Below, piece by piece: positions 51,001 through 57,000 of a DNA stretch of 64,000 nucleotides. Positions within the stretch are counted from its first letter, which is position 1, and each line of letters begins with the position of its first letter. The position numbers are program-made. Source of the stretch: Candidatus Woesearchaeota archaeon (lineage in GTDB: Archaea; Nanobdellota; Nanobdellia; Woesearchaeales; SKGA01); the NCBI GenBank assembly GCA_046546105.1, contig JBKGYN010000001.1, positions 52,441 to 116,440 on the forward strand, read 5' to 3'.

Positions 51001-54000
51001 ATGCTTCTTGATGATTCGAAGCGTACGATGGGTCAGGAGCTCGATGTGCAAAAGAGCATTTTTGATAATGAGCAGAAGCTCGGTGAAAAATGTTCTGAAC
51101 TCAACAAAAGGTATGGGGCTCTTTACGAATCCTTATCCGAGGTTATCAGTAAGATCTCCTCTTCAGAATGATTGGTGGAAAGGTGAATATGTATGGACGA
51201 AAAATCTCCTGTTTTCATAAAAATCGATGAATATCGCAAGGTGCTTGACCTGGTTGATGATTTGAAGAAAAAGACTGGTGAAGTGCGTAGCACTATCAAC
51301 GAGATCAAAGAACTCCGTGACAAGGAAGAGGAGACATTGCAGTTCTGGCAACAGAAGATTGATGATGTTGATAAGAAGATACTGTTCGTTGACCAGACCT
51401 TGTTCGAACCCGAATCGTAATTTTTTTCCATGAGGGAACCCTATGGCTGACCATTCATATTTCGTGAGGATACCTGACTACGAGCTTATCAAGCTGGCGC
51501 TTCTTGAGAGTGCGAAGGAGTCGCTTCTCTCTTCCAAAGCGTATCACGAGCTTCTGGAGATCCGTAAGGAAAAGGAAGATGCTATAAAGAAGCTCAAGAC
51601 AGAAGCTACCGCTATGATGGAGTTGTTTGAGAAGCTTGTCTCCGTCCTTCCTCACAGTGAAGAGATGTTGCAATCCTCGCCTGAACCTTCCCCTGCTAAG
51701 AAGAGCTCTCCATCTAAAAAGACTTCTTCTAAGAAGTCTTCTTCGTCAAAGCATGATGCAGAGCTTGATCGTCTCAATAAGGCCTTATCTGATATTGAGC
51801 GCAAGCTTGAGCACCTCTCGTGAATTGTTTTCTTCCTCGCTTTTTTCCTTGCCAAAGCTTTTATAAACAGCTTGTTCTTCCCTTCTCGTCGGCCGTTCCC
51901 ACTTTTCTTGCGGGGATGCCGGAGCGGCCAAACGGGACAGACTCAAGGCATTTGAGTGCTGAGCATACGAGCTTGGTGAAAAGCTCTTGCGATGAAGAAC
52001 TATGTGAGTCATCTGTTGGCTTAGTGCCTACAAGGGTTCGAATCCCTTTCCCCGCAGATTTTTTCCAGAAAATCGAGGAGTAAGGTTCCTGAGCGTCAGT
52101 GAGGATATCTTTCCCCGCACTTCGTTCTCTTTCGTTCACTTCGTGCGGCTCAAGGGCTTCGAAGTCTTCGGATTCTCTTCGTTCATCCTTGAGTTCCGAA
52201 AGCTTCGCTTCCGTAACAATCCCTTTCCCCGCAGATTTTTTTCGAAAAAATCGAGGAGTAAGGTTCCTGAGCGTCAGTGAGGATATCTTTCCCCGCACTT
52301 CGTTCTCTTTCGGCATTTTTTTATAGCTTTGCCTGTTTTCATTTCTTTTATGGGAATCAAACTTATACCGCTCGGTGGTTTTGGTGAAGTGGGTCGTAAC
52401 TGTCTCGCTGTCGATGTCGATGGTAAGATCATCCTGCTTGACATGGGCTTTCATCTTGAGCGCTACCTTGAAGCTACAGAGGATGATTTTGCTGCGAAAC
52501 GCCATGTGAAGCGTCGTCTCATCTCCTCGGGCGCTCTTCCCGATGTTCGTCTCCTGCGTCGTCGTCGTGACGATGTTGTCGGTATCGTTTGTTCTCACGC
52601 CCATCTCGATCACATCGGTGCCATTCCTTTTCTCGCGAGCCATTTCTCCTGCCCTGTGCATGCGACTCCTTACACCTCGCAGGTCATCCGTTCGCTTGTC
52701 GAGGACAGGGGTGCCAAAGCGAAAGTCATCGCTCACGATCCGTCTGCCACTTTCACCGTTGGCGGTCTCCGGGTTGAATTTATCCCTGTTTCTCACTCCA
52801 CGCCACAGACTGTGGCTGTCGTGATCCACACTGGCGAGGGTGCTGTCATCTATGCTAACGATTATAAGGAAGACACTGACCCTCCCTTTGGTCTCCCCAC
52901 GGACATCTCTCGTCTCAAGGAATTGAAGGGTTCTGTTAGAGCGCTCGTGCTTGATTCTTTGTACGCTCCTTCACAGGATTTTTCTGAAGGGGAGCGGGTT
53001 GCTCGTGAAGACGTGCTATCTTTAAAAGATGAGGTTGCTGGTTCGAGAGCGATTGTCGTATCGACTTTTTCCTCTCACATCTATCGTTTGCAGACTTTAT
53101 GCGATCTTGCTGACAGTCTTGGCAGGGCGGTTGTTTTCATGGGGCGTTCCCTTGATAGGTACATGACTGCTGCCTCTGAGACTGGTATTCTTGACCTTTC
53201 TTCTCGCGGTAAAGTTCTCAAATACCGTCGCCAGATTGATTCCTTTCTCCGTGGAGTCGAGGATCCATCAGAATATTTTTTCATCACCACTGGTCATCAG
53301 GGCGAACCTGAAGCGGTCTTGCGGCGCATGGCTGACGGGCTTTTTGATTTTCATAGTAGTGACTCTGTCATCTTCTCCTGTAACGTGATTCCTGTCCCTA
53401 CTTCCATTCAGAATCGTCGTATCCTTGAGTCCCTCTTAAAAAAACAGGGTGTTCATATTATCTCTGACGTGCATGTCTCGGGTCATGCCTTCGCTAACGA
53501 TCACGATCACTTGCTTTCAATACTCTGTCCTGACTATCTCATCCCTTCTCATGCTGAGCCGCCTATGATCGAGGCGATGCGTGTTATTGCATCCAAGAAA
53601 GGCATCACTGGCCATCGTTTCAGGGATCTCGTTGTCGGTGATGAGCTGGAGTTATGAGGCTTTGTTCCTCTCGCCTTCCTGAAAACATAATATTTATAAA
53701 GCCGGTCTCGGTTGTATTCCTTGTAAGATACGTATATTCACTAATGTTAGTGTTTTTGATGGGGATGCGGTATGAAATTAACTTTGTCTGAACCGAAATA
53801 TTTCAAGGATAGCCTTTCTATTATTTCTGAAATCGTCACTGAAGCGACCTTCAGGGTCAAAAGAGACATGGTCGAGCTTGTTGCCATGGACCCGGCTAAC
53901 GTCGCTCTTGTGGTTTTCCGTCTCGTCTCGAGTGCCTTTGTCACGTATGAGATTGACGGTACCACGGATATTACTGTGAATCTCAATAATCTCAAGCAAG

Positions 54001-57000
54001 TTCTTCGCCGGGTCAAGGGTGGTGACACGCTCACGCTCGAACTTGAGGAGAACAAGCTTAAAGTCGTCTTGCAATCGACTAGCCAGCGTACCTTTTATCT
54101 GCCTCTTATCGATGCTGATGATGAGGAGCAGAACGTTCCTGATCTCTCCTTCTCTGCTGAAATAACGACCCTTGCTTCGGTCTTCAACGATGCGATTGAT
54201 GACGTTGACGTCGTTGGTGAGAGTGTGACTCTTGGCGCTGACAAGGATAATTTCTACGTCAGCAGCAAAGGTGACTTGACCAAGGCCGCCGTGGAAATCC
54301 CTGCTGACCAGACTACTGGTATCTCTTGTAGTGAAGACGGTGTTAAGGCGAAATATTCCATTGAGTATCTCAAGAAGATGATGCAGGGTGGTAAGCTCGC
54401 TGACAACGTCACTATCAAGTTCGCTAAGGATTATCCTCTTCGCGTCGAATACGTCGTCAAGGATAAGGTCGAACTCGACTTCATACTCGCACCTCGAGTC
54501 GATAACGACTAGTTTTCGCGTGAGGTTCGAGAGCTTCAGTGACCGCACCTCGAGTCGATAACGACTAGTTTTCGCGTGAGGTTCGAGAGCTTCAGTGACC
54601 GCACCTCGAGTCGATAACGGTTTTTTTTGGAATCTTTGTTTTGCGGTGTGCGTTGGAGTTGATACCTCATGGCTGATATTGGTGATTACGCTGGTCTTTC
54701 TGATCCTGTCAAGAATATATTGGTTGTTGATGACGATGAAGCTAGTCGGATTCTTTTCACTGAAGTGTTTTCTGCTGGAGGCTACACTGTCTACCCGTTC
54801 GGGAATCCTTTTGAAGCTCTTGAGAACTATGCATCCGTTCATCCTTGCGCTCTTGTCGTTGATTACCGTCTTCCGGGACTCTCTGGTTTAGACTTTGTTG
54901 ATTGTCTCAGGAGCTCTTATGATGTGGATATTCCTGTCTTCGGCTTGTCTGCCGAGCCTGACTTTGCACATCGTGACGATGTTAAAGAGCGTTTCGATCA
55001 TGTTTTTCTGAAACCGACATCCTATTATCACGTTCTTGACACTGTCAACGCTTACCTCTCAGGCACTCGCGAGCTTGGCAGATAGTCTTTCTTGTTTTTC
55101 CTTCCCCTTCCCAAGTTTTTATAAAACAACCTTCATTCTTCCCTGTTTCTATGGAATCTTGCATTCTTTTGCGTTATGGTGAAGTCGCTGTCAAGAGTCG
55201 TCGTAAGCGCCCGTTTTTCGAGCGCTTGTTTGTCAACGCTATCTCTGATGCCTTGTCACGTCACGAGGTTGATTTCGATCGCATCGAGAATCTCGGCAAG
55301 CTTTACGCTGTTTTTCCGACTGACCTTGAAGAAGCCCGTGATGTTCTGGGTCTGGTTCCTGGTATAGAGAGTTACTCTTTGGCTTGGCGCTTCTCGTTTT
55401 CCTCGAAACAGGAGCTTGTCGACACCGTTTTTGACCTAGCTTCTGACGCGGTTGTTGGTAAGACCTTCCGGGTCACTGCCAAGCGTCTTGGCAAGCAATC
55501 CTTCTCCTCGATGGAACTTGCCCGTGACATCGGTTCCATGCTCGCGCCGAAAAGTGCTGGTGTCGATCTGAGCAACCCTCAAAAGACAATTTTTGTCGAG
55601 GTTCGTGAGAATCAGTGTTATGTCTTCTATGATTACATTCCAGGCCTCGGCGGCCTTCCTCCGAGAAGTGTCGGTCGTTCGATGGCGCTTTTCAGCGGTG
55701 GTTTGGATAGTCCCGTCGCTGCCTTTGACCTTCTCAAGCGGGGTTGTGCTCTTGATTACTTGTTTGTCAATATGGTTGGTGACACGATGCTTTCCAGCGT
55801 CTCTAAAGTCTATGACTTTCTCGTTCATCGTTATGCCTACAATCACGTCCCTCGCTTCTTCCACGTCGATGCACGAAAGCTCTCTTCGTATCTCAAGGAA
55901 TCCGTGCCTGAGCGCTTGCGCCAGCTCGCTTTCAAGATGGCCTTGTACATGATAAGCGAGCGTATCGCTAGAGAGCACGGTCTTTCTTCCTTTGCCACTG
56001 GTGAATCTTTATCCCAGAAATCAAGCCAGACCCTTGCAAGCCTTGATTTCATCCAGCAAGCGAGTTCCATGCTCGTCTTGCGCCCTCTCATTTCTCGGGA
56101 TAAGCATGATATAATTGCCATCGCTCGGAGAATAGGTACTTTCGCCGCCTCTGAGAAGGTGAAAGAACAGTGCAATCTTTCTGAAGGTCCTGTCACCGCC
56201 ATTCCTTCTCCTGAAGATCTCGATCTCATTCCTGATCTCGATGGGATCGTGCAGGAGTGTGTTGATTCCGTGGAGGTCTTTGAAGGCGCTTTGGATCTGG
56301 ACACGACTCTTTGTATTCCTTGCTCTGAGATTGATATTGGCGATGCCGTTGTTGTTGACATCAGGACTCCTTCTGTGCAGAAAAAACATCCTGTTGGCGC
56401 TGACATCACAACACCGTATCCGGCGATTCTCGATCATCTCGATCTGTTCACTCGGGAGCGCTCATATATCATCGTCTGCTCTCAAGGCGTCTTGTCGCAC
56501 GAGCTGGCCCACATCCTCTCCGGCCGTAACATCAAAGCCACCGCTTTGAGTTTGAAAGAATATGAGAAGTTCTTTAACAAGGAATGACTGTCTAGATCAT
56601 AATTCTTCTTCTTCCCTGAAGCTATAGTATTGTTTTTTTCCTATGATAACATGATCGAGCAGTTCGATGCCCACTATCTTTCCCGTCTCATTTAGTTGTC
56701 GTGTCACGACCCGATCCTCTTCCGAGGGTTCGGGGTCTCCTGACGGGTGGTTGTGCACGACGATGATCGCGTGTGCGTGTTCCTTGATAGCGCTTGCATA
56801 CACTTCTCGGGGGTGGATGATGGCGCTGTTGACCGTTCCTTTGGCGATCGTCTCTTCCGCGATGACCTCGTTTTTTGTGTTGAGCTGGTAGACCCTGCAC
56901 TCTTCTTGGCGCAGGAGTTGCATCTCGTTGGCTCGTTCCCTCACATCCTCTGCACACGTGATTCGTTTCTCCTTCTCTTGTTTCACATTCCCCGCCCTTC

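What the first reader, a model, noticed from the sequence alone, without database searches (positions are those of the whole stretch)
53772..54619. The PCNA gene terminates inside a 56-bp tandem repeat
The last 24 nt of pcn (encoding APRVDND*) plus 32 nt of downstream sequence are repeated 2.3 times head to tail. Such a repeat is prone to slipped-strand expansion or contraction. It could also act as a repeated terminator/3'-UTR element, or provide alternative C-terminal exons if a frameshift occurred. The PCNA C-terminal tail is functionally important for partner binding.
Basis: seen in the sequence. Interest (0 to 1): 0.5.

Follow-up and report, generated by a model that had tools for sequence, protein, structure and literature searches.

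The report
Copy-variable 56-nt repeat after PCNA
The PCNA gene of this tiny (DPANN/Woesearchaeota) archaeon does end inside a perfect 56-base tandem repeat, but the repeat leaves the protein untouched and looks like a recent slippage-type expansion of an older hairpin-forming sequence in the gene's 3' untranslated region, so it is real but fairly ordinary.

Summary
Positions 54488-54619 hold 2.36 perfect copies of a 56-nt unit. The layout is A-B-A-B-A, where A is the last 20 nt of pcn before 'ACTAG', and B is 'ACTAG' plus 31 nt. The PCNA ORF (53772-54512) stops in unit 1 with the family's usual ...LAPRVDND* end, so the protein is unchanged.

Two near-identical NCBI assemblies (99.9% identical) carry only A-B-A. 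Logan k=31 contigs from two sequencing runs break exactly where a de Bruijn graph must break if the B-A-B junction is in the reads. The duplication is therefore not an artefact of one assembler, although the true copy number (at least 2.36) and the extent of polymorphism stay uncertain.

The A-B-A scaffold is older than the expansion. Diverged versions sit at the same offset in related species with 93% and 85% PCNA identity.

Each unit folds into a 46-nt hairpin of about -20 kcal/mol with the stop codon in its loop. This is far more stable than any other gene end in the window. A T8 tract follows the last A.

B also shares a 23-nt motif with repeats that copy the 3' end of a tRNA-Leu gene 2.3 kb upstream.

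Best reading: a slippage or unequal-recombination expansion of a hairpin-bearing 3'-UTR element, probably near-neutral. Its origin (integration scar or ectopic recombination) is unresolved.

The parts
53772..54512 (+). pcn (PCNA) coding sequence, 246 aa, ending ...LAPRVDND*. The stop codon TAG is at 54510-54512, inside repeat unit 1.
   Evidence: ORF list. Pfam PCNA_N 1.1e-15 and PCNA_C 1.9e-13. The identical protein is annotated as PCNA in NCBI MAGs.
54488..54543 (+). Repeat unit 1: A1 (54488-54507, the last 20 nt of the CDS before ACTAG) plus B1 (54508-54543, which is ACTAG plus 31 nt).
54544..54599 (+). Repeat unit 2 (A2 + B2), 100% identical to unit 1. This unit is absent from assemblies L001 and L002.
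54600..54619 (+). Terminal partial unit (A3, 20 nt). It has no stop codon. It can pair with the preceding B to give an alternative hairpin (-16.5 kcal/mol) that abuts the T8 tract.
54486..54531 (+). Hairpin 1 (46 nt, about -20.4 kcal/mol as RNA, -10.1 as DNA). The 5' arm is the end of the CDS, the loop is GACUA(G) and contains the stop codon, and the 3' arm is the first 2/3 of B. An equivalent hairpin 2 lies at about 54542-54587.
   Evidence: The stop-region folding energy is -21.0, against -7.1 +/- 2.95 (minimum -12.9) for 50 other ORF ends.
54520..54542 (+). Motif GTGAGGTTCGAGAGCTTCAGTGA in B1, with a second copy at 54576-54598 in B2. It is shared with the tRNA-Leu downstream repeats.
54621..54628 (+). 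T8 tract directly after the last A. It is the probable pcn terminator. It aligns with the TATA-like T7 upstream of the RNase J gene, so it may also serve the response-regulator promoter. Both roles are inferred.
   Evidence: Sequence. Alignment. L006 and L007 have T7-T8 directly after the pcn stop. Archaeal termination depends on U-tracts (PMC8716108).
54669..55085 (+). Downstream single-domain response regulator (receiver only), preceded by the SD-like sequence GGAGTTGATACC. The spacer to pcn is 156 nt here and 100 nt in L001 and L002.
51909..52057 (+). tRNA-Leu(CAA) with a 63-nt intron. Its 3' end is copied downstream (related locus).
   Evidence: ARAGORN with introns allowed.
52041..52312 (+). 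X-Y-X duplication. X is 94 nt (52041-52134 and 52218-52312, 97% identical). It begins with the last 17 nt of the tRNA and contains the shared motif (52080-52102 and 52258-52280). 'CTTTCCCCGCA' occurs 4 times.

Best explanation
The window holds a young, perfect, one-unit expansion (A-B-A to A-B-A-B-A) of an older element in the 3' untranslated region of pcn in a Woesearchaeota/Nanobdellota (DPANN) archaeon.

The older element is a 20-nt copy (A) of the end of the pcn coding sequence, lying 36 nt (B) downstream of the original. Such a 20-nt direct repeat, and once duplicated a 76-nt one, is a substrate for slipped-strand mispairing or unequal recombination. Slippage is further favoured because A pairs with the first two thirds of B in a stable hairpin. 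Units can therefore be gained and lost.

The first unit contains the stop codon, so PCNA is identical whatever the copy number. Extra units only add another hairpin and 56 nt to the 3' UTR, between the stop codon and the T8 tract that most likely terminates transcription.

Shown: the repeat itself, its absence from two conspecific assemblies, its presence in the reads of two runs, the hairpin, and the conservation of the A-B-A scaffold in two other species.

Inferred: the slippage mechanism, the T8 as terminator, and any effect of the hairpin(s) on mRNA 3'-end stability, termination or read-through into the response-regulator gene. I expect that effect to be small.
For: The repeat is perfect and unique in the window.

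L001 and L002 are 99.85-99.95% identical to the window. They differ by exactly one 56-nt unit within otherwise identical flanks.

Logan contig L003 ends at stop+5 (...CGACTAGTTTTC). Logan contigs L086 and L087, from runs SRR21542053 and SRR19844287, start with CTTCAGTGACCG. A k=31 de Bruijn simulation gives exactly these break points if at least 2 full units are present, and gives no break for A-B-A alone.

A second copy of the CDS end lies at the same offset (+32 to +37) in three lineages: the window species (z 16), L004 with 93% PCNA identity (18/22 identical, z 10), and L080 with 85% PCNA identity (10/10 identical, p about 0.006). More distant relatives have no such copy. L006 and L007 have a T-run directly after the stop.

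The hairpin has the stop codon in its loop and folds at -20.4 to -21.0 kcal/mol, against -7.1 +/- 2.95 for 50 other ORF ends. Homologous hairpins occur in both L004 units, with U-A/A-U and C-G/U-A exchanges.

PCNA keeps the consensus C-terminus.
Against: No reads were available, so the true copy number in any genome is unknown. A-B-A in the NCBI MAGs could be an assembler collapse rather than a real polymorphism: the Logan contigs that show the cycle carry the L001-type SNPs.

Statistical support for the hairpin from covariation is weak. 69% of cells are paired against 65% in shuffles, 44 of 500 shuffles do as well, and RNAalifold finds no consensus. Shuffling the unit's own G+C-rich downstream sequence gives a z of only -0.7.

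Simple slippage does not explain why the A-B-A scaffold has persisted across species. It also does not explain why B shares a motif with the tRNA-Leu repeats.
Confidence: 0.72

Rival explanations
1. Assembly artefact: the extra unit was created, or in the other assemblies removed, by the assembler walking a short cycle. The real genome would then have a single fixed structure.
For: The array (132 nt) is close to short-read length. Two NCBI MAGs of the same species show A-B-A. The Logan contigs that show the cycle carry the SNPs of those MAGs, so at least one representation is probably inexact.
Against: The k=31 contig ends in two independent runs sit exactly where B-A-B junction k-mers in the reads would place them. 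An A-B-A-only genome gives no break there. At least two full units therefore exist in real reads.
Confidence: 0.06
2. The A-B-A scaffold (not the latest extra unit) is a scar of site-specific or illegitimate recombination. A mobile or foreign DNA segment carrying its own copy of the pcn 3' end recombined at the gene's end, replaced it, and displaced the resident end downstream in front of the original T-run. Prophages do this at tRNA genes and at E. coli icd (from my own knowledge). Nearly all of the inserted DNA was later lost.
For: In L004 the two copies differ at 4 positions, all at third codon positions and synonymous (including TAG/TAA). Meanwhile the spacers B1 and B2 are only 23/39 identical. 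Copy 2 equals the real pcn end of L006, and copy 1 equals that of L005.

In non-repeat relatives a T7-T8 directly follows the stop codon, as it follows the last A here.

B carries a motif found otherwise only in units that copy the 3' end of tRNA-Leu 2.3 kb upstream. The extended alignment scores 46, reached by 0 of 2000 shuffles and 0 of 897 real windows. The same units occur in L004 and L005.

L005 and L004 show the classical layout of tRNA, insert Y, tRNA-3' copy, then the original T-run. L004 has an Mrr-type nuclease gene inserted there.

The tRNA-derived 'CCGCACTTCG' resembles the pcn 'CGCACCTCG'.
Against: No integrase or element lies between or near the copies, and only 36 nt separate them. 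The regular 56-65-nt units look more like tandem duplication than independent scars. Four synonymous differences are a small sample (p about 0.01). In L080 the second copy has non-synonymous-type changes. No matching element was found in viral contigs.
Confidence: 0.2
3. The repeat is a selected cis-regulatory device. B can pair either with the upstream A, giving a hairpin over the stop codon, or with the downstream A, giving a hairpin that abuts the T8. Ribosomes finishing pcn would shift the register and create a terminator-like hairpin, tuning read-through into the response-regulator gene or the stability of the mRNA 3' end. Copy number would set the strength.
For: There are two mutually exclusive hairpins: A:B at -20.4 kcal/mol, and B:A plus U8 at -16.5 kcal/mol. 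The second A is retained in three lineages and tracks lineage-specific synonymous states of the first (CCT in the window, AGA in L080). The hairpin is an energy outlier among gene ends. Hairpins over the pcn stop codon also occur in other Woesearchaeota (L020, L046, L033).
Against: From my own knowledge, archaeal termination needs U-tracts and the factor aCPSF1/FttA (PMC8716108, PMC7515710), and hairpin dependence is not established. Covariation is not significant. In L080 and L004 the region after the second A is different, with no abutting T8. The second copy is degenerate or absent in L078, L005 and L079. No Rfam family matches even at E<=10.
Confidence: 0.1
4. The repeat units encode a mini-ORF (GTG 54539: MTAPRVDND*) that produces a free copy of the PCNA C-terminal tail peptide.
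For: An in-frame GTG lies 2-3 codons before the second copy in the window (GTG ACC GCA CCT...), in L004 (GTG AGA ATA CCA...) and in L080 (GTG AAC CCA CCA...). An SD-like GAGG lies upstream.
Against: The SD spacing is 12-20 nt. In the A-B-A form the ORF runs 98 aa out of frame across the next gene. The L080 peptide diverges after PRV (MNPPRVYTL*). Only three lineages are available and there is no coding statistic.
Confidence: 0.03

Closest known systems
Slipped-strand or unequal-recombination tandem duplications (prokaryotic VNTR/minisatellite loci)
   Same: Perfect head-to-tail units that end in a partial unit. Unit number differs between near-identical genomes. A hairpin-forming unit favours slippage.
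   Different: Only 1-2 full units, placed exactly over a stop codon. The underlying A-B-A scaffold is retained across species with 85-93% PCNA identity, which is longer than a neutral two-copy repeat is expected to survive.
Perfect tandem repeats of Borg extrachromosomal elements of Methanoperedens (PMC9879509)
   Same: Archaeal. Units are perfect and flanked by partial repeats. [quoted passage not shown] Unit number varies within populations. Most intergenic unit lengths are not divisible by 3. Some units fold into hairpins.
   Different: Borg repeats are pervasive, A-rich, usually have 3 or more units, and are not conserved between relatives. Here there is one locus in a 64-kb stretch of a DPANN chromosome. 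It is G+C-rich relative to its surroundings and sits on a conserved scaffold.
Bacterial REP/BIME extragenic palindromes at gene 3' ends (from my own knowledge)
   Same: Stable hairpin(s), sometimes in tandem, directly after or over a stop codon in the 3' UTR. Their expected role is protection of the mRNA 3' end.
   Different: REPs are dispersed in hundreds of copies. Here the unit is unique, and only a 23-nt motif is shared with one other locus in 64 kb. The 5' arm is coding sequence.
Duplication of a gene's 3' end at attachment sites of integrative elements (tRNA genes; E. coli icd with e14/phage 21, from my own knowledge)
   Same: A direct repeat of the gene's 3' end, with the functional copy first and the displaced copy in front of the original terminator. 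In L004 the differences are synonymous only. A neighbouring tRNA-Leu shows the same pattern.
   Different: No integrase or element is present. The spacer is only 36 nt. The copies in the window are identical and tandemly amplified.
Archaeal U-tract terminators and bacterial intrinsic (hairpin + U-tract) terminators (PMC8716108, PMC7515710)
   Same: A T8 tract lies downstream of pcn. The last B + A can form a hairpin that abuts it.
   Different: The hairpin is not known to be needed in archaea. The repeated unit itself holds only T4. Nothing has been tested experimentally.

Membership tests
Tandem duplication / VNTR generated by slippage | Head-to-tail identical units with a constant period | tested here: met
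   TRF reports period 56, 2.4 copies, 100% identity and 0 indels.
Tandem duplication / VNTR generated by slippage | Unit number differs between closely related genomes or within populations | tested here: met
   L001 and L002 have one unit fewer within identical flanks. The B-A-B junction is present in the reads of two runs by the de Bruijn signature. Caveat: an assembler collapse cannot be excluded without reads.
Tandem duplication / VNTR generated by slippage | The repeat is real in the DNA, not an assembly product | tested here: met
   The Logan k=31 contig ends match the simulation only if at least 2 full units are present. No long reads were available.
Borg-type perfect tandem repeats | Pervasive through the replicon, A-rich, at least 3 perfect units, not conserved between relatives | tested here: not met
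   This is the only array of its kind in 64 kb. The unit is not A-rich. The scaffold is conserved in L004 and L080.
REP/BIME-like dispersed palindromes | Many dispersed copies of the same palindromic unit in intergenic regions | tested here: not met
   A and B occur nowhere else in the window with up to 3 mismatches. The motif occurs at only one other locus. The whole genome was not available.
REP/BIME-like dispersed palindromes | Stable stem-loop close to the stop codon | tested here: met
   -21.0 kcal/mol against -7.1 +/- 2.95 for other gene ends.
att-site duplication by an integrative element | Direct repeat of the target gene's 3' end flanking the inserted DNA | tested here: met
   A...A is 20/20 identical here, 18/22 in L004 and 10/10 in L080.
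att-site duplication by an integrative element | An integrase or element genes between or beside the repeats | tested here: not met
   Only 36 nt lie between the copies. The neighbours are RNase J, a response regulator and ThiI. No related viral contig was found.
Intrinsic (hairpin + U-tract) terminator | G+C-rich hairpin immediately followed by a U-tract | tested here: inconclusive
   The alternative hairpin of the last B with the terminal A (-16.5 kcal/mol) abuts T8, but it competes with the more stable A:B hairpin. The consensus scan reported no terminator here.
Intrinsic (hairpin + U-tract) terminator | Transcripts end at the U-tract | not testable with these tools
   This needs 3'-end RNA mapping.
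Known structured RNA family (Rfam) | Match to a curated covariance model | tested here: not met
   There is no match at gathering score in the window and none at E<=10 in 54380-54720.

The most novel reading that the evidence does not exclude
The pcn repeat and the tRNA-Leu downstream repeats may belong to one previously undescribed family of 55-65-nt units in a Woesearchaeal clade. Each unit would consist of a copy of the upstream gene's 3' end, a T-run and a conserved motif (GTRAGGTTC..GAGC.TCAGTGA). Such units could be footprints of a recombination system that targets gene 3' ends. Alternatively they could be translation-sensing, register-shifting hairpin modules in front of a U-tract that control termination or read-through. 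In either case their copy number would be tuned by slippage.
Probability: 0.12. Interest if true: 0.6.

Novelty: new member of a known kind. Interest (0 to 1): 0.3.

Why it matters
As it stands, this is a clean natural example of a copy-variable tandem duplication anchored on the stop codon of an essential replication gene in an uncultivated DPANN archaeon. It is useful as a strain marker. It is also a warning for assemblers and annotators, because near-identical MAGs differ here by exactly one unit.

It would matter more if the conserved A-B-A scaffold and the motif shared with the tRNA-Leu repeats turn out to be a functional 3'-end module, or the footprint of a recombination system that targets gene ends. 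Almost nothing is known about termination, mRNA 3'-end structure or mobile-element integration in DPANN archaea.

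Tried and rejected
1. Rfam: no match at gathering score on the window, and none at E<=10 on the repeat. On the tRNA locus there were only chance-level hits.
2. JGI metagenome scan for close relatives: the best hit has only 63% PCNA identity, so it gave no extra copy-number data.
3. Exact look-up of the window's response regulator failed. The window carries a private G132S variant. ThiI was used instead.
4. Viral-contig scans. The motif gave 4 hits, which I judge to be about what chance would give for 17 specified bases, by my own rough estimate. The Y segment gave no hits, but my pattern matched only the L005 variant. The tRNA-Leu 3' 20-mer hit two unrelated viral or proviral contigs that carry a full or partial tRNA-Leu. 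None of these links to this element.
5. RNAalifold on six homologous units gave no consensus. Counting a named structure gave only weak covariation.
6. Shuffling the unit's own downstream sequence is a poor null, because that sequence is G+C-rich, and gave z = -0.7. I replaced it with a comparison to other gene ends.
7. The generic promoter/terminator scan showed nothing at the repeat.
8. Ideas considered and dropped after inspecting the sequence:
- A C/D-box sRNA, because there is no CUGA/UGAUGA pair in the pcn unit.
- A K-turn.
- A PYLIS-like or other readthrough element, because TGA or TTG-TGA follows the TAG.
- A T-arm-like fold of the motif.
- Origin-recognition boxes, because only 'CAGTG' is shared.

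Full report
**1. The observation.**
Tandem Repeats Finder reports one outstanding array in the 64-kb window: 54488-54619, period 56, 2.4 copies, 100% matches, score 264. The next best array scores 80. Read directly, the array is A-B-A-B-A. A is CGCACCTCGAGTCGATAACG (20 nt). B is ACTAGTTTTCGCGTGAGGTTCGAGAGCTTCAGTGAC (36 nt). The array is followed by G-T8-GG. A occurs three times and B twice. Neither occurs anywhere else in the window, even with three mismatches allowed, against a chance expectation of 0.02 and 0.00.

The ORF 53772-54512 is a PCNA, with Pfam PCNA_N and PCNA_C matches. It ends ...LAPRVDND*, as more than 40 Woesearchaeal homologues do. The stop codon lies in unit 1, so the protein is complete and independent of copy number.

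**2. Organism and neighbours.**
The closest loci in the GTDB species set are MAGs labelled Nanobdellota/Woesearchaeota, so this is a DPANN archaeon. The gene order is tRNA-Leu, RNase J-like beta-CASP nuclease, pcn, single-domain response regulator, ThiI, RadC. All the genes around the repeat are on the + strand.

**3. Real, or an artefact?**
An identical PCNA is encoded in two NCBI assemblies, GCA_046540075.1 (L001) and GCA_046539405.1 (L002), and in a Logan contig from SRR21542053 (L003). L001 and L002 are 99.85-99.95% identical to the window. In the repeat they have exactly one 56-nt unit fewer (A-B-A), with identical flanks.

The Logan contigs are informative. From my own knowledge, they are k=31 de Bruijn assemblies.
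- L003 ends 5 nt after the stop codon (...CGACTAGTTTTC).
- The contigs that carry the response regulator and ThiI, from SRR21542053 (L086) and SRR19844287 (L087), both begin with CTTCAGTGACCGCACC..., 79 nt before the response-regulator ATG. I had predicted that start point before the look-up (notes).

A simulation shows that an A-B-A genome produces no unitig break at k=31. Any genome or mixture with at least two full units produces exactly these two break points. B-A-B junction k-mers are therefore present in the reads of two runs, and the duplication is not an invention of the window's assembler.

The exact copy number is still not established. The Logan contigs carry the L001-type SNPs. So either the populations are mixed or the NCBI A-B-A versions are collapsed.

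**4. The scaffold is older than the expansion.**
I searched 150-300 nt downstream of pcn in about 50 related loci for a second copy of the CDS end. Three lineages have one, at the same offset:
- the window species: 20/20 identical, z 15-19;
- L004, 93% PCNA identity: ACCACGAGTCGACAACGATTAG versus ACCACGAGTAGATAATGATTAA, 18/22 identical, z about 10, period 57;
- L080-82, 85% PCNA identity: CACCAAGAGT repeated 10/10, p about 0.006, period 59.

L078 (94%) and L005 (86%) show at most degenerate traces. L079, L083 and all more distant relatives show none. L006 and L007 have a T7-T8 directly after the stop codon.

The tail of B is recognisably homologous between species: CAGTGAC, TAGTGAAC and GGTGAGAAT. 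L004's sequence after its second copy aligns with the window's sequence after the last A. A-B-A-D is therefore ancestral to this small clade.

The second copy follows lineage-specific synonymous states of the first: CCT in the window, AGA in L080. This suggests repeated homogenisation by slippage or gene conversion. In the window species the copies are perfect, so the last round was recent.

**5. Anatomy of the unit.**
As RNA, each unit folds into a 46-nt imperfect hairpin. The 5' arm is the end of the CDS (CUCG.CACCUCG.G.CGA.AAC). The loop is GACUA(G) and contains the stop codon. The 3' arm is the first two thirds of B. The energy is -20.4 kcal/mol as RNA and -10.1 with DNA parameters.

A 55-nt window around the pcn stop folds at -21.0 kcal/mol. 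The same window around 50 other long-ORF ends gives -7.1 +/- 2.95, with a minimum of -12.9.

Both L004 units fold into the homologous hairpin. Several differences are compensated: U-A/A-U at the Pro codon, and C-G/U-A at the Asp and Asn/stop positions. With only six non-independent sequences the covariation is not significant, however. 69% of cells are paired against 65% in shuffles, 44 of 500 shuffles do as well, and RNAalifold gives no consensus.

The last B can alternatively pair with the terminal A at -16.5 kcal/mol. That gives a stem-loop abutting the T8. This structure excludes the A:B hairpin.

No Rfam family matches.

**6. A second, related locus.**
Searching the window for other local duplications found a 94-nt segment X repeated 177 nt apart (52041-52134 and 52218-52312, 97% identical), just upstream of the RNase J gene. 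X begins with the last 17 nt of a tRNA-Leu(CAA) gene (51909-52057). That gene has a 63-nt intron and was missed by the default tRNA scan. 'CTTTCCCCGCA' occurs four times there. A second gene in the window therefore has its 3' end copied downstream.

X also contains GTAAGGTTCCTGAGCGTCAGTGA, which is 19/23 identical to GTGAGGTTCGAGAGCTTCAGTGA in B. The motif occurs nowhere else in the window.

The similarity extends over about 75 nt: motif, then CCGCAC(C/T)TCG, about 11 nt, CGG, T7/T8 and CTTTG..TTTT. The alignment scores 46, reached by 0 of 2000 shuffles and 0 of 897 real windows.

The same units lie in tandem downstream of tRNA-Leu in L004 and L005. Each is about 63-65 nt and starts with the tRNA's terminal CTTTCCCCGCAG plus a T-run. 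The L005 version (GTGAAAGGTCGAGAACGTCAGTGAC) is even closer to the pcn B. L004 also carries an Mrr-type nuclease gene inserted in that spacer. The region therefore looks recombinationally active, and the pcn module is related to it.

**7. How it most likely works.**
*The immediate event.* The change from A-B-A to A-B-A-B-A is best explained by slipped-strand mispairing or unequal recombination between the 20-nt direct repeats, helped by the hairpin. This is the standard mechanism for such arrays and fits the perfect identity and the copy-number difference.

*The consequence.* There is none for PCNA. The 3' UTR gains one more stable hairpin and 56 nt in front of the T8. The T8 is the likely terminator, because archaeal termination efficiency depends on U-tracts and aCPSF1 (PMC8716108, PMC7515710). 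I infer at most a modest effect on mRNA 3'-end stability or on read-through into the response-regulator gene.

*The origin of the scaffold.* This is unresolved. One option is ectopic recombination or conversion at the microhomology CGCAC.TCG with the tRNA-derived module. The other is a recombination scar in which an incoming pcn 3' end displaced the resident one. The evidence for the scar is that the L004 copies differ only synonymously, while their spacers are only 59% identical, and that copy 2 equals the L006-type gene end. The evidence against it is that no element or integrase is present and the spacer is only 36 nt.

**8. Comparison with what is known.**
The finding behaves like a prokaryotic VNTR. 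Its closest archaeal parallel is the set of perfect tandem repeats of Borg elements. [quoted passage not shown] It fails the Borg criteria of pervasiveness, A-richness and lack of conservation.

It resembles REP/BIME elements in being a stable hairpin at a stop codon, but it is not dispersed. It resembles att duplications, but it lacks an element.

**9. Verdict.**
The repeat is real and well supported by independent data. The 'alternative C-terminus' idea is not. The 'repeated terminator' idea holds only in the weak sense of repeated 3'-UTR hairpins.

This is a new instance of a known kind of feature. Two loose ends are moderately interesting: the conserved scaffold and the motif shared with the tRNA-Leu repeats. 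Interest is 0.3.

Noticed in passing
window 51909-52057: tRNA-Leu(CAA) gene with a 63-nt intron in the anticodon loop. The default ARAGORN run and Rfam at gathering score both missed it. It is found only when introns are allowed.
   Followed up: yes
window 52041-52312: X-Y-X duplication: a 94-nt X at 97% identity with 177-nt spacing. X starts with the last 17 nt of tRNA-Leu. 'CTTTCCCCGCA' occurs 4 times. The 83-nt Y segment (inverted repeat CTCAAGG...CCTTGAG; GTGCGG complementary to CCGCAC) is conserved directly after the tRNA in L004 and L005. It could be a structured RNA or an element remnant.
   Followed up: partly
L004 1020-1487 (minus strand); N-run at L004 556-654: The sister species has a small Mrr_cat restriction-endonuclease-like gene inserted between the tRNA-Leu repeat array and the RNase J promoter. 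It also has a masked stretch between two copies of the tRNA 3' end. This spacer is a variable, insertion-prone region.
   Followed up: partly
window 52280-52350 and 54598-54669: The shared motif ends 70 nt before the RNase J ATG (52350) and 71 nt before the response-regulator ATG (54669). The T8 after pcn aligns with the TATA-like TTTTTTTATAG of the RNase J promoter. The two modules may therefore be related promoter regions. The spacing is not kept in L004 or L005.
   Followed up: partly
window 55062 (response regulator codon 132): The window carries Gly132 where L001, L002 and both Logan contigs carry Ser. The window's strain is therefore not in the protein-location index, and the exact look-up of this protein failed.
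   Followed up: yes
L020, L046, L033, L024, L048/L050 around the pcn stop codon: Several distant Woesearchaeal pcn genes have their own stable hairpin with the stop codon in or near the loop, for example L020 UUGAAAACGA-CUAAA-UCGUUUUCAA. They have no tandem repeat. A stop-codon hairpin may be a recurrent feature of pcn in this group.
   Followed up: partly
L031 about 3843-3859 (100 nt after the pcn stop): A possible independent partial copy of the pcn 3' end, GAGTTGATAATAATTAA versus GAGTAGATAATGATTAA (z 4.5). It is A+T-rich and could be chance.
   Followed up: no
window 24062-24129 and 35845-35914: Other, imperfect tandem arrays: period 24 with 2.8 copies at 75% identity, and periods 11 and 19 (TTTGAGACTGT). 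I did not examine them.
   Followed up: no
window 53778-54842 (minus strand): A 354-aa ORF runs antisense across the whole of pcn, the repeat and the start of the response regulator. I take it to be a spurious ORF opposite real genes. It displaced pcn in a naive longest-ORF gene call.
   Followed up: no
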